The notes: generated by a model from the sequence alone, not told the origin. DNA of 32,000 bases from Propionibacterium freudenreichii subsp. freudenreichii (GCF_000940845.1 NZ_CP010341.1:2550001-2582000), one strand, 5' to 3'; positions 2,141-30,070 are shown, numbered from the stretch's first letter. Translations and numbers: made by a program.

Positions 2141-3124
2141 GTGGTCAGACTCATCCTCAGACGAATCGCCGGCTGGGCGGCGATGATCGTCGTCGCCACC
2201 AATGCCACGTATTTCCTCGCGGTGGCATTCCTCGATCCCCGATCCAACTACCGGGACACCCGCCCCGTCCCCAGCGAGATCCATATCGACCAGGCCCTGG
2301 CTCCCTACAACCTCGACCCGAGGGTTCCCGTCCTGGAACGCTGGTGGCACTGGCTCAGCGACATCGTGCTGCACTTCGACTGGGGACGCTCCCCCACCGG
2401 TGGATCGGTCAACGCGGAGGTCGGGTACCGGGTCTTCACCAGCGCCGAACTGGTCCTACTGGCCACCGTCCTGTCGGTGGTCATCGGGGTGGGCCTGGGC
2501 GTGGTGAGCGCGCTTCACCAGTACCGACCTGCCGATCGCATCCTGCAGAGTGTCTCCGTCATCCTCTACAACGTTCCGACCGTAGTGGCGGCCCTGTTCC
2601 TAGTGTTCGGGGCGATCCGCCTCAATGACGCCGTCGGCCGGCGCATCTTCTTCGTCACCGGCTCCAGCTCCCCCGACGTCACCGGCTTCTGGGCCACCCT
2701 GGGCGACACCCTCGCCCACCTCCTGCTGCCGACGATCTGTCTCACCGTGCTCGGCTACGTCGGCTACCACCTGACCCAGCGGTCCCTGCTCCTGGACACC
2801 ATCAATGCCGACTTCGTGCGCACCGCCCGGGCCACCGGGCTCACCCGCGCCCAGGCCGTCCGGCGGCACGCTCTGAGGGCCTCGCTCATCCCCACCGCCA
2901 CCTCCGTCGCCTTCTCCATCCCCGGTATTTTCACCGGAGCGGTCCTCACCGAGAGCATCTTCGGCTGGCACGGCATGGGCGAGTACTTCACATTGACCCT
3001 CAGCAAGAATGATGTTCACGGCGTGGTCGCCGTCGCTGCCTTCGGGGCACTCATGACGGCGATCGGCGCCGTTCTCGCCGATATCGCCACCGCATTCCTC
3101 GACCCGAGAGTGAGGCTACGATGA
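2141..3124 (+). CDS. ABC transporter permease, peptide/nickel (DppB/OppB) type
   Basis: GTG start preceded by caggagc. The N-terminus VVRLILRRIAGW is typical of this family. The EAA-loop region reads ARATGLTRAQAVRRHALRASLIPTAT...LTESIFGWHGMGEY. Confidence 0.8.
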   Translation: MVRLILRRIAGWAAMIVVATNATYFLAVAFLDPRSNYRDTRPVPSEIHIDQALAPYNLDPRVPVLERWWHWLSDIVLHFDWGRSPTGGSVNAEVGYRVFTSAELVLLATVLSVVIGVGLGVVSALHQYRPADRILQSVSVILYNVPTVVAALFLVFGAIRLNDAVGRRIFFVTGSSSPDVTGFWATLGDTLAHLLLPTICLTVLGYVGYHLTQRSLLLDTINADFVRTARATGLTRAQAVRRHALRASLIPTATSVAFSIPGIFTGAVLTESIFGWHGMGEYFTLTLSKNDVHGVVAVAAFGALMTAIGAVLADIATAFLDPRVRLR

Positions 3125-3125
3125 C

Positions 3126-3512
3126 GGGCTCTTCACGAACGAGGGTGTAGCGCGGGTCTGAATCCGCCGGCTTCGAGCAGCGACCGAGCGATGTAGTGGC
3201 TGAGGTTGCGGAAGCCGAGGGCCGTGCCGCGGAGGTGTTCGAGTCGGCCGTTGATCGCTTCGGTGGGGCCGTTGCTGGTGCCGGGGCGGTCGAAGTAGCC
3301 GAGCACGTCCGAAGCGCGCTGTGTGAGGGTGCGGGCGAGTTTGCGGATCTCGACGAGCTGCTCCGGGACGCTGGCGCTGATCTTGTCGATCGTGTGCGCG
3401 AGGAAGAATCTGCCCAGGCCGCGGTCCTTGTCCCGGTAGGCGGTGATCATGTCTTGGTAGATGCCCCACGTCGCTTCGACCTCGACGTGCCTGTCGTCGG
3501 CGAACAGGGCAT
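3126..3512 (-). mobile_element. ISL3-family IS remnant: one terminal inverted repeat plus the 3' part of the transposase gene
   Basis: The terminal sequence gggctcttcacgaacgagggtgtagcgc (3126-3153) is an ISL3-type IR (GGCTCTTC...). It starts 2 bp after the permease stop. The element body is cut at 3512 by the IS481 copy. Confidence 0.7.
3133..3512 (-). pseudogene. ISL3-family transposase, C-terminal ~126 codons only
   Basis: Translation DALFADDRHVEVEATWGIYQDMITAYR...GPTEAINGRLEHLRGTALGFRNLSHYIARSLLEAGGF matches the conserved ISL3 transposase C-terminus. No N-terminal part is present. The ORF-track extension to 3684 reads through IS481 DNA. Confidence 0.7.
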
Positions 3513-4640
3513 CTAGCTGTTGTGGGTCATGACGTTGTGGTCGCTGGGGTGGGGATAGAAGGAACGGGCCCCTGACCGGCACGATGGGTGGTGCTGAAGC
3601 CATGCATCTGCTGGGAGGAGACCCGTTCCATGACCCACCGTAATGCCCCGTTGACCGTGCTCGGAAGACAGCGTGCTGTCGCACAGGTCCTCGAGAGAGG
3701 ACGCCCGATCGCGCACGTCGCGCAGGAGTTCCACATCGCCCGCTCGACCCTGTCGAAGTGGGTCGCCCGCTATCGCAAGCACGGCCAGACAGGACTGGTA
3801 GACCGCTCGAGCGCTCCCGCGCACCGGCCTACGCGATTGCCCGCGCAGGTCGTGGAACTGATCGAGGACTGGAGGCGGGAGAAGAAGTGGTCCGCCCGCC
3901 GGATCGCACGGGAACTCGCCGACGGCCACGGGTTCCGCTGCTGCGTGCGCACGGTGACGCGCTGGCTGGACCGCCTGGGTCTGAACCGGATCCGCGACAT
4001 CACCCCGGACGGCAAGGATCTCCGCCGGCCGGGGAAGATCATCGCCCGCTATCCCGGGCACATGGTCCACATGGACGTGAAGAAGGTCGGGAAGATCCCA
4101 GACGGCGGCGGCTGGAGAGTCCATGGCCGCGGCAGCGAGCAGGCCCTGGCCGGCAAACGCGCTCACAAGCAGAAGGTCGGCTACGCCTACCTCCACTCCA
4201 TGATCGACGGCTTCTCCCGCTTGGCCTACACTGAAGTCCTGCCCGATGAGAAAGCAGCCACCACAACTGGGTTCTTCCATCGCGCAAGGGTGTTCTTCGC
4301 CGCGCACGGCATCAGCAGGATCACGCGTCTGGTCACGGACAACGGCAGCAACTATCGCGCCGCGTCGTTCGCCCAGTCGACCAGGGCGTTCGTCTCCCGC
4401 CACCAGCGGACCCGGCCCTACACGCCCCGACACAACGGGAAGGTCGAGCGCTACCAGCGGATCCTCACCGACGAGTGCCTCTATGCCCGCGACTACGCCT
4501 CCGAGAAGGAGCGAGTCGAGGCGCTCGGCGTCTGGAACCACCACTACAACTACCATCGGCCCCACACCGCCTGCGGCGACCAGCCCCCGGCCTCACGCCT
4601 CCACACCGGCGTCGACAACGTCATGACCAACTACACCTAG
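3513..4640 (+). mobile_element. IS481-family insertion sequence, copy 1 (apparently intact)
   Basis: Imperfect terminal IRs: ctgttgtgggtcatgacgttgtggtc (3517-) against the reverse complement of the right end, gtgtagttggtcatgacgttgtcgac (-4636); 21/26 match. CTAG sits immediately outside both ends (3513-3516 and 4637-4640). Confidence 0.85.
3630..4640 (+). CDS. IS481-family DDE transposase
   Basis: ATG at 3630 preceded by gggaggag. N-terminal HTH, then DDE blocks HMVHMDVKK, LVTDNGSNY and HNGKVERY, and the C-terminal YNYHRPH motif. Confidence 0.9.
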   Translation: MTHRNAPLTVLGRQRAVAQVLERGRPIAHVAQEFHIARSTLSKWVARYRKHGQTGLVDRSSAPAHRPTRLPAQVVELIEDWRREKKWSARRIARELADGHGFRCCVRTVTRWLDRLGLNRIRDITPDGKDLRRPGKIIARYPGHMVHMDVKKVGKIPDGGGWRVHGRGSEQALAGKRAHKQKVGYAYLHSMIDGFSRLAYTEVLPDEKAATTTGFFHRARVFFAAHGISRITRLVTDNGSNYRAASFAQSTRAFVSRHQRTRPYTPRHNGKVERYQRILTDECLYARDYASEKERVEALGVWNHHYNYHRPHTACGDQPPASRLHTGVDNVMTNYT

Positions 4641-5029
4641 ATCGCTACGCCGATGGCCAGCATGACGACGCCGAGGGCGGGCACGACGCCCTGCTTCAGC
4701 GCGGCGGCGGCCTTGTCGGGGCTGGACAGGATCAGCACGAGCGCGGCGCCCACCATCGAGCCAGCCCCGGTGAAGATGAGGGTCAGCGCGATCGAGTCCT
4801 GCCCGATCGCGAAGAAGATGATGCCGAGGATGACCGCGACCGCGAGGAAGAGGTTGTAGAACCCCTGGTTGAACGCCAGCGCCTTGGTCGCCGGCGCGGC
4901 GGCCTCGTCCTCGGTGGCGCCGAAGGTCTTCCTAGCCGCGGCGGACGTCCACGCGATCGACTCCATGTAGAAGATGTAGACGTGGATGAGCGCGGCGATG
5001 CCCGCGAGTACGAGTCCGGCGATGATCAT
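4637..5029 (-). CDS. DUF1304-family small membrane protein
   Basis: ATG at 5029 with gaaggat upstream; 130 aa. The motifs HVYIFYMESIAW and AFNQGFYNLFLA are the hallmark DUF1304 blocks. Its TAG stop is the CTAG that abuts the IS481 right end. Confidence 0.75.
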   Translation of the reverse strand: MIIAGLVLAGIAALIHVYIFYMESIAWTSAAARKTFGATEDEAAAPATKALAFNQGFYNLFLAVAVILGIIFFAIGQDSIALTLIFTGAGSMVGAALVLILSSPDKAAAALKQGVVPALGVVMLAIGVAI

Positions 5030-5184: not shown

Positions 5185-5271
5185 CCGCCCGGCATTGGAC
5201 GGCAACAGCGGAGCGATCCGCTTCCACTGCGCATCCGTGAACACCCGATATCGAGAACCCGTCGACCTCAC
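5185..5271 (-). pseudogene. Stub of an IS5/IS1182-type transposase (DUF4096-like N-terminus)
   Basis: Translation RYRVFTDAQWKRIAPLLPSNAGR matches the conserved xLTDxQWxxIxPLLP N-terminus of IS5-family OrfA proteins. Similarity stops after about 28 codons. The GTG start overlaps the umuC stop (GTGA). Confidence 0.4.
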
Positions 5272-6056
5272 CCCACCAGACTGCCGCGAACCTCACGATG
5301 CATATGGGAGACACGCCCTAGTTCGGCCCAGTGGGTGGTGCCCCGGTTGGACAGCATCTCGCGGCGCATCTGCCAGTCCGGGGGAGCTGTGATCCCGGCC
5401 CATCCCAGGCCCAGGGCCCCGCGCCCGCAGGCGGCGTTGACCCGATCGACCAAGGCGCCCAGGCGGGCCAGGCGAGGGTCGGGGGAGAAGGGGTCGAGCA
5501 TCGGCTGGGCGCCTGCCGGGGCCAGGTCCAGCAGCGAGATCCCGGCCCGGACGTACCGGCGGCCGGGCTCGATGCGATCCAGCAGCAGATCGCAGGCCGC
5601 CTTGACGATGGTCACCGGATCATCGGCGGGGTGGGGGAGCCGCCCGGCCACACTGATCTGGTGGACGGGTTCGACGTACCAGCTCGTGGAGGCGAAGACC
5701 CACAGGCCGGCAGCCACCGAGTGCTGGTGACGCAGCCGCGTGGCGGCCTGCTGGGCATAGATCGCCAGAACCTGATGCATCTGGGTCCGGTCGGTCACCG
5801 GTGTGGAGAACGACCGGGAGAACATGATCTGCCCCGTCCGCACGGCGTCCCTGTCATCGACGTCGATGCAGTCGGTGCCGCGCAACTCCAGGATCGTGCG
5901 GGCCAGGTTCACGTTGAACCGTCGGCGCATCACCGCAGGGTCGGCATCGCGTAGCTGGCGGGCAGTGCGGATACCCATCGAGGCCAGCCGGGAGTCCAGG
6001 CGCCGGCCCACACCCCACAGGTCGGCGACCGGGGTCGCCTCCAGGATCGCGTCGAC
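5268..6056 (-). pseudogene. umuC: Y-family translesion polymerase UmuC, missing roughly the N-terminal catalytic third
   Basis: The frame is open from 6056 and reads VDAILEATPVADLWGVGRRLDSRLASMGIRTARQL...MRREMLSNRGTTHWAEL, which covers UmuC from the PVxDxWGVGRR block to the C-terminal MxREMLSPxYTTxW block. A stop (the CTAG at 6057-6060) and the 51-bp repeat replace the N-terminal part. No umuD is present. Confidence 0.75.
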
Positions 6057-6060
6057 CTAG

Positions 6061-6111
6061 TGGGCCTACCCTGGTTTTTCGGACACCTGATGTGGCGGGG
6101 CCTGGTGGCCC
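6061..6111. repeat. Left copy of a perfect 51-bp inverted repeat
   Basis: tgggcctaccctggtttttcggacacctgatgtggcggggcctggtggccc is the exact reverse complement of 7733-7783. Confidence 0.95.
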
Positions 6112-6356
6112 TGCCCAGTTGCTCGGACTCGTCGCGGGTGGGAAGGATGCCGGCAACTCGGAACTCGAGAAGGCGGGATCCCATGAGACCGGCGCCGGCT
6201 TCCCCGTTACCTGGCGCACTGACACCGATCACCAGGGCTTCTGAGCCTCGGACGAGTTCAGGGCACTCGACATACCCCAACGACATACCCCAACTCGATC
6301 TGTCGGCCAGACAGTGCATGATGTTCAGAGAAGTCCGACCGAAGGGATCCTCACCC

Positions 6357-7337
6357 ATGCCCAATCCCGTACACGACATCGACGCAGGCGGCCAGCCGAT
6401 GGATAAGTATGACGCTCGAGTATGGAAGTCGCTGAACGAGTTCTGGGAGAAGAAGAGTGATCCCCAGACCCTGACGAACCGAGCCGCCGCGGCGCTTCAG
6501 CACGGCGGTGCAGCTGTCGAAGGAGCCGCCAAGAAGGCCACCGGCGCCATCCCTGAGATGGTGAAACAGCCGATCCGTCACGTCAGTGACGCGGCTGGAG
6601 AGAAAGTCATGGAGCCGGTGGCTAAATCGGTGGTTCACCTGCTCGATCTGGTTAATTCATGGGCCCTCGATCTCAATGATCCGAGCTGGGTCGTGACCCA
6701 CGCGCAAAAGCAGGGGCTGTGCATCGATGCCTTCACCGAGCTGCATGATGCCGATCTCAAGTTCTGCGACAGACTGCTCGATCGCAGTACCTTGACGTGG
6801 CGCACGGTCGGTGCGCTCGAAGGTGGTGCCATGGGTGCTCTCGCAATGGTGCCCATTGCAGGAACTGTCGCCTCAATCAGTGCGGACATCATCGTCATCC
6901 AAGTGCTGAGTACTGCCATAGCTGCCCGGGTGGCGTACTCCTACGGTTTCGACGCGAAGGATCCGGACGAGCAGAGGTTCATCCAGCGTCTCGTGAACCG
7001 AACTTTCATGGCCCAAGCGGCCAAGACGCAGCCGATGGCGCAGGTTGGTAAAGCCGCCGGTGCAATCAAAGGGCGCGTGCACTGGTCCGATAAACTCCGC
7101 AACGATCACCAGATCATCAAGAATCTTGAGAAGCTCATGAATCTCACTGGAACGAATGGTGGGAAGGTCGGCGTCCAGAGTGTCGGAAAAGCTGTTCCAG
7201 TAGTTGGCGTGCTTCTCGGAGCAGGAACGAACTCCGCAGTGCTAGGCAACGTAGCGGCTGATGCCAAGCGTTACTGTCAGACCCGGTTCTTGTGTGAGAA
7301 GTACGGTCTACAAACCCCCTCCGCCTTGGACTTCTAG
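6357..7337 (+). CDS. EcsC-family protein
   Basis: ATG at 6357 preceded by gaaggga. The core GALEGGAMGALAMVPIAGTVASISADIIVIQVLSTAIAARVAYSYGFDAKDPDEQRFIQRLV looks like the EcsC family signature. GC is markedly lower than in the flanks: a manual count of one 60-nt sample gave 28/60. Confidence 0.6.
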   Translation: MPNPVHDIDAGGQPMDKYDARVWKSLNEFWEKKSDPQTLTNRAAAALQHGGAAVEGAAKKATGAIPEMVKQPIRHVSDAAGEKVMEPVAKSVVHLLDLVNSWALDLNDPSWVVTHAQKQGLCIDAFTELHDADLKFCDRLLDRSTLTWRTVGALEGGAMGALAMVPIAGTVASISADIIVIQVLSTAIAARVAYSYGFDAKDPDEQRFIQRLVNRTFMAQAAKTQPMAQVGKAAGAIKGRVHWSDKLRNDHQIIKNLEKLMNLTGTNGGKVGVQSVGKAVPVVGVLLGAGTNSAVLGNVAADAKRYCQTRFLCEKYGLQTPSALDF

Positions 7338-7732
7338 GGGATCCAAAAGAGCGGTAGCCATCGACACCATGGGCATGCCCACCGAATCGGTGTCCAGTTC
7401 GGCAACCGTCCCGGCTCCCTGCGGTTCACGACCCCAGCAGCCGGGCCCGCTACTGAAACGATCACTCCCACATCCGGCCACGGACCGCCCGGTACGCCCT
7501 CGCAGATCTGCACGAGAGCGATCACGAACCCCGGGGCGCAGGTGAACTGCTCCGCACGCCCCACGACTCCCGGCATCCCCACCGACTCGGCCTCCACCGC
7601 CTCGCAACGGGCGGCAGAGCTGAAGTAGCGACTCCGGGCCCGGTCGGGGCCCCTGGAGCCCGGTCAGATGTGGTCCCGCTGAGGTGGTGGCGGATCCTGG
7701 TTCGACTACGGACCAGCATCCGCCACACTCTC

Positions 7733-7783
7733 GGGCCACCAGGCCCCGCCACATCAGGTGTCCGAAAAACCAGGGTAGGCCCA
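7733..7783. repeat. Right copy of the perfect 51-bp inverted repeat
   Basis: gggccaccaggccccgccacatcaggtgtccgaaaaaccagggtaggccca. Identity with the left copy stops exactly at both repeat ends. Confidence 0.95.
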
Positions 7784-7821
7784 GTCGGTGGTCGGTCTGC
7801 TGTTGGTCCGGGAAAGAGCTT

Positions 7822-8025
7822 CAGTGTTGGTAGCGGCCTTGGCCGGACAGGGCGGTGTAGAGGGTCTGCCGCGACACTCCGAGATCCCGGGCGACCCTGG
7901 ATTTGGTCACCCCGTTGGCGATGCGCCGGCGGGCGGTGTCGATCTGGTCGGCCGACAGTTTGGGTCCCCGGTCGTAGACGCCGCGGGCTTTGGCCAGGGC
8001 GATGCCTTCGCGGATCGATCGCCGT
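7822..8025 (-). pseudogene. Serine recombinase (resolvase/invertase), C-terminal HTH domain only
   Basis: Translation RRSIREGIALAKARGVYDRGPKLSADQIDTARRRIANGVTKSRVARDLGVSRQTLYTALSG covers the E-helix end plus the HTH of Tn3-type resolvases. There is no start codon and no catalytic domain. The stop lies 38 bp from the right 51-bp repeat. Confidence 0.7.
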
Positions 8026-8197
8026 GGGCTACCAAACTCTGAACCAGAACGGCGACATCCGGCAGCGCGCGCGAATCACGCTCATAGGCTGGAGATGCGA
8101 CGTTGGAGCTCAGGCCGCAGCACCGGGTGCTGAGAGCGGCGAAAAGGCGATCAAACGCGGAGAAAGTCGCTGAGTCGTACCTGGTCTGGCATTGCGA

Positions 8198-9058
8198 CTA
8201 CAGGCTGATGGCGGCAATGCCGGCAAGTACGATCACGGCGCCGATCAGACGCCGGGCGAGGTGTCCTTCGCCGAAGAGACGCCAGGCGAGGAGCGCGCCG
8301 ATCACGATGGATGCCTCCCGCAGTGGCGCGACGAGTGCCACGGGTGAGGTTTGCATTGCGGTCAGCACAAGGATGTACGCGAGCGGGGACAGCACTGCGA
8401 CCGCGGCGGTAGGTGCGCGATTTACGCGGAGGGTGTTCGCGAACGCTGCGCGGCGTCTGATGATGGCTGGAGCCAGGAATACGACCTGGACGACGAGCGT
8501 GCCGGCGTAGTAACTGACGGGTGCGAGCCCGATGGAGCCGATCGCGAACGCGTCCCACAGCGTGTAGGCGGCGATCGTGGCTCCGGTGGTAGTACCCCAT
8601 GCGATGCCGCGGAGGGGGCGGCTGCCCGTTCTCTGGAAGGGGTTGCCCGTGACGACGAGGATGCCTGCGAGGATAACGAGCGCTCCGATGATCGCCAGCG
8701 CCGTGGGGCGTTCTCCGAGCAGGAAGATAGCGATCACGATGGTGAGCAGCGGCCCGACGCCGCGAGCGATCGGATAGACGACTCCGAGGTCTGCTCGGTC
8801 GTAGCCCGCCTGCAGGGTGAGCGAGTACGTCAGGTGCAGGGCGGCGGACACGGCCGCAGCGGCGACCAGGGCCCAGGTGATCGGTTGCGAACCGGAGACG
8901 GCGGCACCGATCGCGAGAGGGAGACACAGGATCGCGGAAGCGGTCGTGTAGGCGCCCACGAACAGCAGCGTGTCGCCTTTCTTATACTTCGATACGAGGT
9001 TCCAGCCAGCGTGGGCGACTGCGGCGACGAGGACGATCGCAACGGTGACTGGTGGCAT
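8198..9058 (-). CDS. EamA/DMT-superfamily transporter
   Basis: 286 aa with about 10 hydrophobic segments. The N-terminus AHAGWNLVSKY and the duplicated EamA-like halves fit the family. The start overlaps the RpiR stop (TGATG). Confidence 0.7.
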   Translation of the reverse strand: MPPVTVAIVLVAAVAHAGWNLVSKYKKGDTLLFVGAYTTASAILCLPLAIGAAVSGSQPITWALVAAAAVSAALHLTYSLTLQAGYDRADLGVVYPIARGVGPLLTIVIAIFLLGERPTALAIIGALVILAGILVVTGNPFQRTGSRPLRGIAWGTTTGATIAAYTLWDAFAIGSIGLAPVSYYAGTLVVQVVFLAPAIIRRRAAFANTLRVNRAPTAAVAVLSPLAYILVLTAMQTSPVALVAPLREASIVIGALLAWRLFGEGHLARRLIGAVIVLAGIAAISL

Positions 9059-10928: not shown

Positions 10929-11051
10929 GGGCTCTTCCCAGATGAGGGTGTAGCGCACGTCGCGCGGCGGGCCGGCGCGTCTGGCTATGTCAACTTCATT
11001 TGGCCCCGGGTTGTCGGTCTGGCTGGGCCCCGGTTGGGTGCGAGAAGCCAA
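10929..11051 (-). mobile_element. Second, heavily decayed ISL3-family end
   Basis: gggctcttcccagatgagggtgtagcgc (10929-10956) matches the IR at 3126-3153 at 24/28 positions, in the same orientation. The minus-strand translation TQPGPSQTDN...VDIAR faintly parallels TSNGPTEAIN...HYIAR of the first remnant. Confidence 0.45.
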
Positions 11052-28779: not shown

Positions 28780-28819
28780 ACAGATGCGTCCCGTCAGGTG
28801 CAGGTGCTGGCACGCACGG

Positions 28820-28940
28820 GGCGGCACGCGACCAGCTGACGGCGCGGCCATGCACGGGGCGGCCTCGCGCTCGGCGGCACGCGACCTGCTGACGGCGTTG
28901 CCAAGCGCGGGGCGGCACGCGAGCCGGTGGCGGCGCGGCC
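28820..28940. repeat. Three imperfect 30-bp direct repeats in non-coding DNA
   Basis: ggcggcacgcgaccagctgacggcgcggcc (28820-28849), ggcggcacgcgacctgctgacggcgttgcc (28873-28902) and ggcggcacgcgagccggtggcggcgcggcc (28911-28940). Pairwise identity to the first copy is 26-27/30. Start-to-start spacing is 53 and 38 bp. Confidence 0.8.
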
Positions 28941-28967
28941 TCGGTCTGACCCGACGCAACAGGAGTG

Positions 28968-30070
28968 CTAGCTGTACTTCCCCGGGAGGTTGTGAACGGG
29001 TGAGGTAGCGAAGACCTCCGGGCAGGATGTGGGTTACCACACTCACTCTCCTGACCACGGAGGTCTTCGTGACTCACGCTAACGCACCCTTGACACCGGA
29101 AGGGCGTCGTCGTCTTGCTGTTCTCGTCGTGGAACAGGGCTGGTCGTTGCGGCGGGCGGCGGAACGGTTCCAGTGCTCGCCCGCGACGGTGAAGCGGTGG
29201 GCCGACAGGTACCGGGCAGGGCTGCCGTTGATCGACCGTAGTTCGAGGCCCACCTCGTCACCGAACCGGCTTTCGCGTAAGACGGAGCATCGGATCGTCG
29301 CGTTGCGGTTCACTCGCCGGTGGGGTCCGCACCGGATCGCGTATCACCTGCGGTTGCACCGTTCCACGGTCGGTCGGGTGCTCGCCCGATACAAGATGCC
29401 GAAGCTGATCAACATCGACCAGGCCACCGGGCTGCCGGTTCGCCGCCCGAAGCCGAAACGGTACGAGGTCGCCGCGCCGGGCCAGCTCGTGCACGTAGAT
29501 ATCAAGAAACAAGGCCGGATCCCCGACGGCGGCGGGTGGCGTGCCCACGGTCGCGGATCCATGCAGGACCGTCACGCGGGAGTGGCCCGCGACAAGGCAG
29601 CCCGTGCCGGGGCAGCCGGCTCTCGCGGCTACCGGTATCTGCACCACGCCGTGGACGACCACTCCCGGATCGCGTACTCAGAGATCCTTGACGACGAGCG
29701 CAAAGAGACCGCAGCGGGGTTCTGGACCCGCGCGAACGCGTTCTTCGCAGGCCTGGGCGTCACAGTCACCGCGGTGATGACCGACAACGGTTCCTGCTAC
29801 CGGTCAGGCGCCTTCGCTGACGCGCTCGGCGACGAGGTGAAGCACAAGTGGACCCGGCCATACCGGCCGCAGACCAACGGCAAGGTCGAGCGGTTCAACC
29901 GGACCCTCGCCGTCGAGTGGGCCTACGCGAAGCCCTACGCCAGCGAAGCCGAGCGCGCCGCAGCCTACGAGACCTGGCTCCATCACTACAATCACCACAG
30001 ACCCCACACCGGGATCGGCGGCCAGACTCCCTCAGCCCGCGTTCACAACGTCACGGGGAAGTACAGCTAG
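28968..30070 (+). mobile_element. IS481-family insertion sequence, copy 2 (a different element from copy 1)
   Basis: IRs: ctgtacttccccgggaggttgtgaacggg (28972-) against the reverse complement of the right end, ctgtacttccccgtgacgttgtgaacgcg (-30066); 26/29 match. CTAG lies outside both ends (28968-28971 and 30067-30070). Confidence 0.85.
29069..30070 (+). CDS. IS481-family DDE transposase
   Basis: GTG at 29069 preceded by ggagg. DDE blocks are LVHVDIKK, VMTDNGSCY and TNGKVERF, with YNHHRPH at the C-terminus. It is only moderately similar to the copy-1 transposase. Confidence 0.9.
   Translation: MTHANAPLTPEGRRRLAVLVVEQGWSLRRAAERFQCSPATVKRWADRYRAGLPLIDRSSRPTSSPNRLSRKTEHRIVALRFTRRWGPHRIAYHLRLHRSTVGRVLARYKMPKLINIDQATGLPVRRPKPKRYEVAAPGQLVHVDIKKQGRIPDGGGWRAHGRGSMQDRHAGVARDKAARAGAAGSRGYRYLHHAVDDHSRIAYSEILDDERKETAAGFWTRANAFFAGLGVTVTAVMTDNGSCYRSGAFADALGDEVKHKWTRPYRPQTNGKVERFNRTLAVEWAYAKPYASEAERAAAYETWLHHYNHHRPHTGIGGQTPSARVHNVTGKYS

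What the first reader, a model, noticed from the sequence alone, without database searches (positions are those of the whole stretch)
6061..7783. Perfect 51-bp inverted repeats bracket a low-GC EcsC-family gene with no transposase; polarity is ambiguous
6061-6111 and 7733-7783 are exact reverse complements, and identity ends sharply at both edges. Truncated genes abut both outer edges: umuC loses its N-terminus at 6056, and a resolvase stub ends 38 bp from 7783.

Reading A treats this as a 1,723-bp non-autonomous element with TG...CA tips and a passenger gene. The EcsC-like gene is about 47% GC in a sampled stretch, against much richer flanks. The CTAG at 6057-6060 abutting the left tip resembles the CTAG flanks of both IS481 copies here.

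Reading B notes that, read from the inner side, each repeat is GGGCC...CCGAAAAACCAGGGTAGG. This parallels the GGGG...ACGAAAAC...TAAG architecture of Tn3-family IRs (for example the Tn3 38-mer). In that reading the interiors point outward, toward the resolvase stub on the right, and the 1.6-kb core is DNA trapped between two Tn3-type ends.

In either case no flanking direct repeat is visible (acctag on the left, gtcggt on the right), so later rearrangement is implied.
Basis: partly seen in the sequence, partly recalled or inferred. Interest (0 to 1): 0.65.

Follow-up and report, generated by a model that had tools for sequence, protein, structure and literature searches.

The report
Known ISPfr11-derived mobile insertion cassette
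The 1,723-bp unit is a transposase-less "mobile insertion cassette" of Propionibacterium freudenreichii, bounded by two copies of the left end of the IS3-family insertion sequence ISPfr11 and carrying an EcsC-family gene; it was already noted in the 2010 type-strain genome paper, so it is real but ordinary.

Summary
Window 6061-6111 and 7733-7783 are perfect 51-bp reverse complements, and they are the only two copies in the window.

The polarity question is settled in favour of reading A. The 51-mer is the first 51-53 bp of a 1,315-bp IS3-family insertion sequence, and TG is its outer tip.

The same 1,723-bp unit, with 0-3 nt differences, lies in two other places in Propionibacterium freudenreichii genomes. 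Each has a 4-bp target duplication: CCAG inside a CRISPR repeat, and CGTG inside an ISL3 element.

One of those copies is FN806773.1:371,214-372,936. Falentin et al. [quoted passage not shown]

Reading B (Tn3-type ends pointing outward) is rejected.

Details that I did not find in the literature I could search:
- Both arms are left ends. The real right end of the IS matches only 26/51.
- The 1.62-kb core is a fragment of Acidipropionibacterium jensenii-type chromosome, joined to the IS ends by 1-3 nt microhomology.
- The window copy has no target duplication. Its left tip sits in umuC, and its right tip joins unrelated DNA that has a different neighbour in another strain. This implies a later deletion or recombination.

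Novelty: already known. Interest is low.

The parts
6061..6113 (+). Left arm: positions 1-53 of the parent IS3-family IS (ISPfr11-type left end, IRL), with TG as the outer tip. The first 51 nt are repeated in the right arm. T6112 is IS-specific and G6113 is shared with the donor DNA.
   Evidence: 100% identical to L009 527-579, L016 4910-4962, L010 and L014, which are left ends of full 1,315-bp IS copies.
6113..6244 (+). Captured remnant: the last ~44 codons of an FAD/NAD(P)-binding (NAD_binding_9) gene of the donor chromosome.
   Evidence: Homology to native loci L001-L004 and L027 starts exactly at 6113. The full 645-aa native protein is 639/645 identical to A. jensenii WP_257478910.1.
6245..6356 (+). 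Native intergenic region upstream of EcsC, captured together with the gene.
   Evidence: 99.7% identical to L001-L003, with the same 112-nt spacing between the two genes as in the native locus.
6357..7337 (+). Passenger gene: an EcsC-family protein of 326 aa, intact.
   Evidence: PF12787 E=4.3e-16. The exact protein (P0129) is on at least 90 contigs, including complete P. freudenreichii genomes. It equals PFREUD_03020 of Falentin 2010 by coordinates.
7338..7735 (+). Captured native downstream DNA. It ends 6-9 nt after a terminator-like hairpin (7687-7704 / 7709-7726). GGG at 7733-7735 is microhomology shared with the IS arm.
   Evidence: Homology to native L004/L027 runs to about 7735 and is then lost. 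The hairpin is inverted repeat I3.
7733..7783 (-). Right arm: a second, inverted copy of the IS left end (positions 1-51). It is not the IS right end. CA is the outer tip.
   Evidence: 51/51 to IRL. The true IRR of the parent IS matches IRL at only 17/27 and 26/51.
5268..6060 (-). Left flank (not part of the element): umuC lacking its 5' part, broken exactly at the element tip.
   Evidence: IMS_C plus DUF4113. The intact homologue in L010 continues past the break.
7784..8027 (-). Right flank (not part of the element): 37-nt spacer plus the C-terminal HTH stub of a serine resolvase.
   Evidence: HTH_7 E=6.7e-9. In strain L023 the DNA left of 7784 is different (ISL3 end plus 38 nt), so 7783|7784 is a true tip junction.

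Best explanation
This is a copy of the ISPfr11-derived mobile insertion cassette (MIC) of Propionibacterium freudenreichii. It is a 1,723-bp non-autonomous transposable element.

Structure: its ends are two inverted copies of the first ~51 bp of the left end of a 1,315-bp IS3-family IS, with TG...CA outer tips. Its interior holds no transposase. It holds a 1.62-kb piece of Acidipropionibacterium jensenii-type chromosome: the 3' end of an FAD/NAD(P)-binding gene, an intact EcsC-family gene, and its terminator.

How it moves (inferred): the OrfAB DDE transposase of full-length ISPfr11 copies in the same genome acts on it in trans, recognising the two left-end repeats. This gives IS3-type copy-out/paste-in transposition with a 4-bp target duplication.

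This copy: it inserted into umuC, and that is the left junction. The DNA on its right side was later exchanged or deleted, so the right tip now abuts an unrelated resolvase remnant and no target duplication remains. Either homologous recombination with another MIC or ISPfr11 left end, or a transposase-mediated adjacent deletion, could do this.

Shown: identity of the arms with the IS left end, absence of a transposase, mobility as a unit with target duplications, donor origin of the cargo, and identity with the published MIC.

Inferred: trans-mobilisation by ISPfr11 transposase, the route of cargo capture, and the cause of the missing duplication.
For: 1. Arms equal the IS left end. The 51-mer plus TG (53 nt) is 100% identical to the left terminus of full 1,315-bp IS copies in L009, L010, L014 and L016 (CP120878.1, P. 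freudenreichii). These copies encode OrfA (HTH_Tnp_1) and OrfB (rve; NF033516 IS3 family, 309 bits against a cutoff of 160). The annotated 403-aa product spans 1,211 nt, which is the arithmetic of a -1 frameshift fusion.

2. Mobility as a unit. The same 1,723 bp has 0 differences in L012/L024/L028/L032, where it splits one 36-bp CRISPR repeat and duplicates CCAG. Thirty-two intact repeats in L012 serve as empty sites. It has 2-3 differences in L025/26/29/30/31/33, where it is flanked by CGTG|...|CGTG inside an ISL3 element.

3. Published identity. L033 2705-4427 equals FN806773.1:371,214-372,936, the interval Falentin et al. 2010 (PMC2909200) call a MIC with ISPfr11 termini carrying PFREUD_03020. 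Their Table S2 lists ISPfr11 as IS3 family with 5 complete copies.

4. Captured cargo. Window 6113 to ~7735 is 98.4-99.7% identical to loci where the same EcsC gene follows a complete 645-aa gene that is 99% identical to an A. jensenii protein. Homology stops at the inner edges of both arms.

5. Not an assembly artefact. The window arrangement is 99.9-100% identical in a complete genome and several independent assemblies.

6. Rearranged flanks. The intact umuC homologue in L010 continues past 6060. Strain L023 has other DNA left of 7784.
Against: - The window copy itself has no target duplication, so its own insertion cannot be shown directly.
- None of the four full-length IS copies I could inspect has a duplication either. 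Three are metagenome contigs that may be chimeric across the repeat, and one sits at a rearrangement breakpoint.
- No full ISPfr11 copy lies inside this 32-kb window, so I could not confirm a transposase source in this particular strain.
- I could not check the name ISPfr11 against ISfinder. It rests on the paper's statement plus the coordinate match.
- Transposition with two left ends has not been tested experimentally for this IS.
- For the CGTG duplication I found no empty site.
Confidence: 0.92

Rival explanations
1. Reading B: the repeats are Tn3-family terminal repeats whose GGGCC ends are the tips. The two elements extend outward, towards the resolvase stub and umuC, and the 1.6-kb core is DNA trapped between them.
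For: There is a superficial resemblance to GGGG...ACGAAAAC...TAAG. A resolvase remnant lies 37 nt outside the right arm. The core is indeed foreign to the arms.
Against: - The identical sequence is the left end of an IS3-family IS, with TG as the tip and the orfA start 17 nt past the 51-mer.
- The TG...CA ends carry 4-bp duplications in two other contexts. The Tn3 family makes 5 bp (established knowledge).
- On the outer side, the sequence differs in every context immediately beyond CCCA. An outward-pointing element interior would not do that.
- There is no Tn3-type transposase near any copy.
Confidence: 0.01
2. In-situ wreckage: two full ISPfr11 copies once flanked the EcsC gene at this locus and each was independently deleted down to ~51 bp. 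The unit would then be a fossil that never moved as a whole.
For: The window copy lacks a target duplication and sits among other mobile-element debris: IS481, ISL3 ends, truncated umuC and truncated resolvase.
Against: - The same 1,723 bp, down to the base, lies in a CRISPR repeat and in an ISL3 element with clean 4-bp duplications.
- The cargo's native locus belongs to another genus.
- The junctions between arms and cargo are identical in all copies, so capture happened once, before dispersal.
Confidence: 0.02
3. Assembly chimera: the lack of a direct repeat arises because an assembler joined the left flank of one copy to the right flank of another through the repeated element.
For: The element is multicopy. 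Several short-read contigs break at its arms: L020, L022, L023 and L007.
Against: The same umuC'-MIC-'resolvase-EamA arrangement is present in the complete chromosome CP120878.1 (99.92% over 12.8 kb). It is also present in at least four independent assemblies at 99.9-100%.
Confidence: 0.02

Closest known systems
The MIC of P. freudenreichii CIRM-BIA1 with ISPfr11 termini (FN806773.1:371,214-372,936, gene PFREUD_03020; Falentin et al. 2010, PMC2909200)
   Same: Same element. Same length (1,723 bp), same arms, same EcsC-family passenger, and only 2 nt different.
   Different: A different insertion site. The published copy lies in an ISL3 element with a CGTG duplication. The window copy lies between a truncated umuC and a resolvase remnant in a copper-resistance, IS-rich region, with no duplication.
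MIC231 and other mobile insertion cassettes (Bacillus cereus group, IS231/IS4-family ends; qnrD/qnrS2 MICs in Proteeae and Aeromonas)
   Same: Same architecture and logic: IS-type terminal inverted repeats, passenger gene(s), no transposase, and target duplication. Mobilisation in trans by the parent IS was demonstrated for MIC231 (my recollection of De Palmenaer et al. 2004). The term is in wide use.
   Different: The parent IS is of the IS3 family (copy-out/paste-in), not IS4. Both arms derive from the same (left) end of the parent. The cargo can be traced to a specific chromosomal locus of another genus.
ISPfr11 (IS3 family, IS3 group), represented here by the 1,315-bp IS in L009/L010/L014/L016
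   Same: The first 51-53 bp are identical to the MIC arms, with TG...CA tips.
   Different: The IS has orfA/orfB and an imperfect right repeat (17/27 to IRL). The MIC has neither the transposase genes nor the right end.
Tn3-family transposons and their miniature derivatives (TIMEs)
   Same: Long terminal repeats. The motif CGAAAAAC loosely resembles the Tn3 ACGAAAAC box. A resolvase fragment lies nearby.
   Different: The tips are TG/CA, not GGGG. The duplication is 4 bp, not 5 bp. The parent transposase is of IS3 type. The resolvase fragment lies outside the element and is absent from the other copies.

Membership tests
Mobile insertion cassette (MIC) | Terminal inverted repeats identical or near-identical to those of a known IS | tested here: met
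   Both arms are 51/51 identical to the left end of a 1,315-bp IS3-family IS.
Mobile insertion cassette (MIC) | No transposase gene between the repeats | tested here: met
   The only Pfam-positive ORF in 6061-7783 is EcsC. The other ORFs give no hits, and the parent IS matches the window only at the two arms.
Mobile insertion cassette (MIC) | Carries one or more passenger coding sequences (unlike a MITE) | tested here: met
   Intact 326-aa EcsC-family gene.
Mobile insertion cassette (MIC) | Has moved as a unit: same element in different sites with target-site duplications | tested here: met
   Three contexts. CCAG is duplicated in a CRISPR repeat (32 empty repeats for comparison), and CGTG is duplicated in an ISL3 element. 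This is not met for the window copy itself (CTAG / GTCG).
Mobile insertion cassette (MIC) | Autonomous parent IS present in the same genomes to supply transposase in trans | tested here: met
   A full IS (99.7%) lies ~5 kb from the MIC in CP120878.1 (L016). There are 5 ISPfr11 copies in CIRM-BIA1. None lies within this 32-kb window, and actual trans-mobilisation was not tested.
IS3 family (parent element) | Two overlapping ORFs (HTH OrfA, DDE/rve OrfB) fused by -1 frameshifting | tested here: met
   OrfA is HTH_Tnp_1. OrfB is rve with NF033516 at 309 bits (cutoff 160). orfA and orfB overlap at L009 897-900. The database gene model of 403 aa over 1,211 nt implies a -1 fusion. The slippery site itself was not identified.
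IS3 family (parent element) | Imperfect terminal repeats ending 5'-TG...CA-3' and a short (3-5 bp) target duplication | tested here: met
   TGGGCC...GGGGTTACCCCA-type ends, with 17/27 IRL-to-IRR identity. The MIC shows a 4-bp duplication. No duplication was seen around the four full-length copies examined.
Tn3 family (reading B) | ~38-bp terminal repeats starting GGGG at the outer tip, with the element interior on the TAAG side | tested here: not met
   The GGGCC ends face the captured cargo and are internal IS positions. The outer side differs in every context.
Tn3 family (reading B) | Large Tn3-type DDE transposase (TnpA) and a 5-bp target duplication | tested here: not met
   No such gene lies next to any copy. 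The duplications are 4 bp.
Composite transposon | Two complete IS copies flanking the cargo | tested here: not met
   Only 51-53 bp of IS sequence remains at each side.
MITE | Small (typically <~600 bp) and non-coding | tested here: not met
   1,723 bp with an intact 326-aa gene.

The most novel reading that the evidence does not exclude
The one unusual aspect is how the cassette was built. Both arms are the same (left) IS end. Each is cut within 1-5 nt of the other (IS positions 52/53 and 48-51), immediately after a GC-rich IS hairpin (positions 38-51). Each is joined by 1-3 nt microhomology to a contiguous A. jensenii chromosomal fragment whose far end lies just past a terminator hairpin.

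This pattern would fit a single replicative template-switching event during IS3 copy-out, rather than two deletions. That would be a bacterial analogue of eukaryotic 'transduplication' (Pack-MULE-like gene capture). A cassette made this way would then have crossed genera and landed in, among other places, a CRISPR array.

Nothing here excludes this reading, but it rests on a single element and on inference.
Probability: 0.15. Interest if true: 0.5.

Novelty: already known. Interest (0 to 1): 0.2.

Why it matters
The practical value lies in annotation.

- This 1.7-kb unit should be labelled as the ISPfr11-derived MIC in P. freudenreichii genomes.
- The truncated umuC and the resolvase stub beside it are rearrangement scars, not parts of the element.
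- The 'EcsC family protein' it carries is a horizontally acquired, multicopy passenger originating from Acidipropionibacterium, not a core gene.

The element interrupts the type I-G/I-U CRISPR array in several strains and sits at rearrangement breakpoints, so it contributes to strain-level genome plasticity in an industrial cheese and vitamin B12 organism.

The traceable donor locus and the left-end/left-end architecture make it a tidy, if minor, case study of how IS-derived cassettes capture chromosomal genes.

Tried and rejected
- Plasmid database searches found nothing useful. Neither the whole region (near mode) nor the 51-mer (distant mode) matched in PLSDB; only two 23-nt chance hits appeared.
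- The genome-collection and metagenome scans with the 19-mer TCCGAAAAACCAGGGTAGG also returned chance hits (L008, L011, L013, L015). These share only the 19-mer and were discarded.
- I looked for target duplications around four full-length IS copies (L009, L010, L014, L016) and found none. I do not take this as evidence against transposition. Three are metagenome contigs that may be chimeric across a multicopy repeat, and the fourth is at a deletion or rearrangement breakpoint.
- I tried to find an unoccupied copy of the ISL3 site to verify the CGTG duplication. None was present in the loci held.
- The extension of the inverted repeat to 62 nt reported by the repeat finder was judged to be chance (7/11 matches).
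- BLAST extended the homology between the right arm and native L004 to window 7754. By eye this is spurious beyond the GGG at 7733-7735.
- The Tn3 reading, the composite-transposon remnant reading and the assembly-chimera reading were considered and rejected (see rival explanations).
- I did not use structure prediction or the large protein-representative search. The function of EcsC is not what the finding turns on.

Full report
**1. The observation**

Window 6061-6111 and 7733-7783 are exact reverse complements (51/51). No other copy exists in the 32 kb even with three mismatches allowed, and no shuffle produced a match.

Between the arms lies one convincing gene: ATG 6357 to stop 7337, 326 aa, EcsC family (PF12787, E=4e-16).

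- Left flank: a umuC gene without its 5' part (IMS_C plus DUF4113, minus strand).
- Right flank: 37 nt, then the C-terminal helix-turn-helix of a serine resolvase (HTH_7, E=6.7e-9).
It is 58.3% over the CDS against 68.2% for the window, and only the lowest 100-nt stretch reaches 48%.
- Direct repeat: none flanks the unit (CTAG on the left, GTCG on the right).

**2. What the core is**

The same EcsC protein, with one residue different (P0001), occurs on contigs L001-L004. The exact protein occurs on L027. In all of these it lies in a different and evidently native context: an ABC transporter, a CMD-family gene, a complete 645-aa FAD/NAD(P)-binding gene, then EcsC 112 nt downstream.

Window 6113-7586 is 99.7% identical to L001-L003. 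Window 6113 to ~7735 is 98.4% identical to L004 and L027.

The homology begins one or two bases inside the left arm's inner edge, within the last 44 codons of the upstream gene. It ends at the inner edge of the right arm, 6-9 nt after a terminator-like hairpin.

The upstream native protein is 639/645 identical to Acidipropionibacterium jensenii WP_257478910.1.

So the core is a contiguous 1.62-kb piece of A. jensenii-type chromosome, and the arms are foreign to it.

**3. What the arms are, and their polarity**

A scan of one genome per species with a 19-mer from the arm found the complete 51-mer in a Propionibacterium MAG contig that ends 3 nt later (L007). It also found it in a Cellulomonadaceae MAG (L009).

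In L009 the 51-mer starts a 1,315-bp insertion sequence (IS):
- The tip is TGGGCC..., and the orfA ATG lies 17 nt after the 51-mer.
- OrfA is HTH_Tnp_1.
- OrfB is rve, with NF033516 'IS3 family transposase' at 309 bits against a cutoff of 160.
- The right end reads ...GTCCGAAACTTGCGGGTAACCCCA.

Near-identical full copies (99.6-99.7%) are in L010, L014 and L016. L016 is the complete P. freudenreichii chromosome CP120878.1.

So TG is the outer tip and the GGCCC end faces the IS interior. This is the polarity of reading A.

The left and right ends of the IS match each other only 17/27 and 26/51. Both arms of the window element are therefore copies of the left end.

- The left arm retains IS positions 1-52/53. 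T6112 is IS-specific.
- The right arm retains positions 1 to 48-51. GGG at 7733-7735 is shared with the donor.
- The two capture junctions are therefore close but not identical, with 1-3 nt of microhomology.

**4. Mobility as a unit**

A metagenome scan found contig L012, which carries the identical 1,723 bp (window 6059-7783 equals L012 11521-13245, no differences).

There the unit splits one 36-bp repeat of a CRISPR array:
- The left half-repeat ends ...CCCCTCCAG.
- The right half begins CCAGAAGG...
- The 32 intact repeats in the same contig contain CCAG once.
- So four bases were duplicated on insertion.

A look-up of the exact EcsC protein found it on at least 90 contigs, including the complete P. 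freudenreichii genomes FN806773.1, LT576032.1, LT618787.1, LT618788.1, LT618793.1 and LN997841.1.

In these genomes the unit sits in one of two places:
- in the same CRISPR site next to cas2 and cas4-cas1 (L024, L028, L032), or
- about 130 bp inside the end of an ISL3 element, flanked by CGTG on both sides (L025, L026, L029-L031, L033), with 2-3 nt differences from the window copy.

Three contexts, two with clean 4-bp duplications at the TG/CA tips, show that the unit transposes as a whole.

**5. It is already described**

L033 positions 2705-4427 correspond to FN806773.1:371,214-372,936.

Falentin et al. [quoted passage not shown] Their Table S2 lists ISPfr11 as IS3 family, IS3 group, with five complete copies. 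No other paper in the searchable library mentions ISPfr11.

The window element is another copy of this published cassette. The 1,315-bp IS found here is, by that statement, ISPfr11. I could not check the name against ISfinder.

**6. The window copy and its missing duplication**

The window arrangement (IS481, DUF1304, umuC', MIC, 'resolvase, EamA, then a copper-resistance cluster) is 99.9-100% identical in CP120878.1 and in several independent assemblies (L016-L021). It is therefore not an assembly chimera.

Left junction:
- An intact umuD-umuC homologue (L010, 93.6% identical over window 5454-6058) reads ...GTCGACCT-GG-CCGGGCC where the window reads ...GTCGACCT-AG|TGGGCC.
- Strains L016 and L021 have CTGG at that position.
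- So the left tip is a clean insertion junction in umuC, and the 'CTAG' is a SNP rather than an IS481-like target.

Right junction:
- The rest of umuC is not to the right of the element.
- Strain L023 is 99.65% identical from 7784 rightward. Immediately left of 7784 it has entirely different DNA: 38 nt, then the end of an ISL3 element.
- So 7783|7784 is also a true tip junction, but into a different target.

The simplest account (inference) has two forms:
- two insertions followed by homologous recombination between directly repeated copies of the MIC or IS left ends, or
- an intramolecular transposase-mediated adjacent deletion that removed umuD and the 5' part of umuC.

A full-length ISPfr11-type copy in CP120878.1 likewise sits at a breakpoint in the copper ATPase gene without a duplication. 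This suggests such rearrangements are common for this IS.

**7. Mechanism**

Shown:
- IS3-family left ends at both termini.
- No transposase inside.
- A parent IS in the same genomes.
- 4-bp duplications.

Inferred from established knowledge of the IS3 family (IS911/IS2/IS3 copy-out/paste-in through a circle with abutted ends):
- ISPfr11 OrfAB binds the two left-end repeats.
- It circularises a copy and integrates it with a short staggered cut.

How the cassette arose is not shown. Both arms are left ends, cut just after a GC-rich hairpin at IS positions 38-51. The cargo ends just after a terminator hairpin, and the junctions have 1-3 nt microhomology. These features are compatible with template switching during replication, or with two illegitimate deletions. 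I cannot tell which.

**8. Reading B and other rivals**

The Tn3 reading fails for four reasons:
- The tips with duplications are TG/CA.
- The duplication is 4 bp.
- The outer flank differs in every context directly beyond CCCA.
- No Tn3-type transposase accompanies any copy.

The resolvase stub is unrelated flanking debris and is absent from the other copies. A composite-transposon remnant formed in situ is excluded by the identical arm-cargo junctions in all copies and by the foreign origin of the cargo.

**9. Verdict**

Reading A is right and reading B is wrong. The element is a further copy of a mobile insertion cassette already reported for this species.

The incremental points are the left-end/left-end architecture, the A. 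jensenii origin of the cargo, the 4-bp duplication, the recurrent insertion in the CRISPR array, and the rearranged flanks of this copy. They are useful for annotation but would not surprise a specialist. Interest is low (0.2).

Noticed in passing
L012 11501-13262; also L024, L028, L032: The same cassette splits one repeat of the 36-bp-repeat CRISPR array (the CRISPR1 repeat of Falentin 2010; type I-U/I-G per Deptula 2017) next to cas2 and cas4-cas1 in several P. freudenreichii assemblies. Whether the part of the array beyond the insertion is still expressed is unknown.
   Followed up: partly
window 12834|12835 (equivalent to L016 4910-6224, CP120878.1): In the complete genome CP120878.1 a full-length 1,315-bp ISPfr11-type IS interrupts the copper P-type ATPase gene at this position. 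The DNA beyond it differs from the window (AraC, NmrA, WYL, TrwC relaxase instead of the rest of the ATPase and the Cu-oxidase cluster). There is no target duplication, so this is an IS-associated rearrangement.
   Followed up: partly
window 3511-4642 and 28968-30070: Two different IS481-family elements, each bounded by CTAG and its own terminal inverted repeats (42 nt at 83%, and 31 nt at 94%). The first encodes a 350-aa transposase with the LZ_Tnp_IS481 and rve domains.
   Followed up: partly
window 3127-3150 and 10930-10953: Two solitary ISL3-type terminal repeats (GGCTCTTCACGAACGAGGGTGTAG and a 5-mismatch variant) with no adjacent ISL3 transposase. They are probably remnants of ISL3 elements.
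   Followed up: no
window ~8027-8197: The resolvase remnant is also broken at its N-terminal side, near 8027-8040. About 160 nt of unassigned DNA follows before the EamA transporter gene (8198-9058). The cause of this second breakpoint was not examined.
   Followed up: no
L034 2861-4110 (VECX01000002.1, labelled Kocuria rhizophila); also L035-L039: A 1,250-bp piece of the same EcsC region (cassette positions 157-1406, 99.6-99.8% identical) occurs without the IS arms, between a DDE_Tnp_1 transposase gene and an ISL3 transposase gene. Its EcsC protein differs by 2 residues. The locus is 66% GC, which seems low for Kocuria, so the species label may deserve checking.
   Followed up: partly
window 7475-7604 versus L027 4636-4765: A 130-bp stretch downstream of EcsC is repeated (91.5% identical) about 240 bp further downstream in the native A. 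jensenii-type locus. This probably explains why contigs L001-L003 all end at window-equivalent 7586-7592.
   Followed up: no
window 28803-28946: Three degenerate tandem or overlapping copies of a 53-nt unit (75-77% identical) lie just upstream of the second IS481-family element.
   Followed up: no
L009 77-460: In the Cellulomonadaceae MAG the ISPfr11-type IS lies next to the orfA of a different IS3-family element. The ISPfr11-type IS is 99.7% identical (4 differences in 1,315 nt) between that MAG and P. freudenreichii CP120878.1, which points to recent transfer between families (or to mis-binning of the contig).
   Followed up: no
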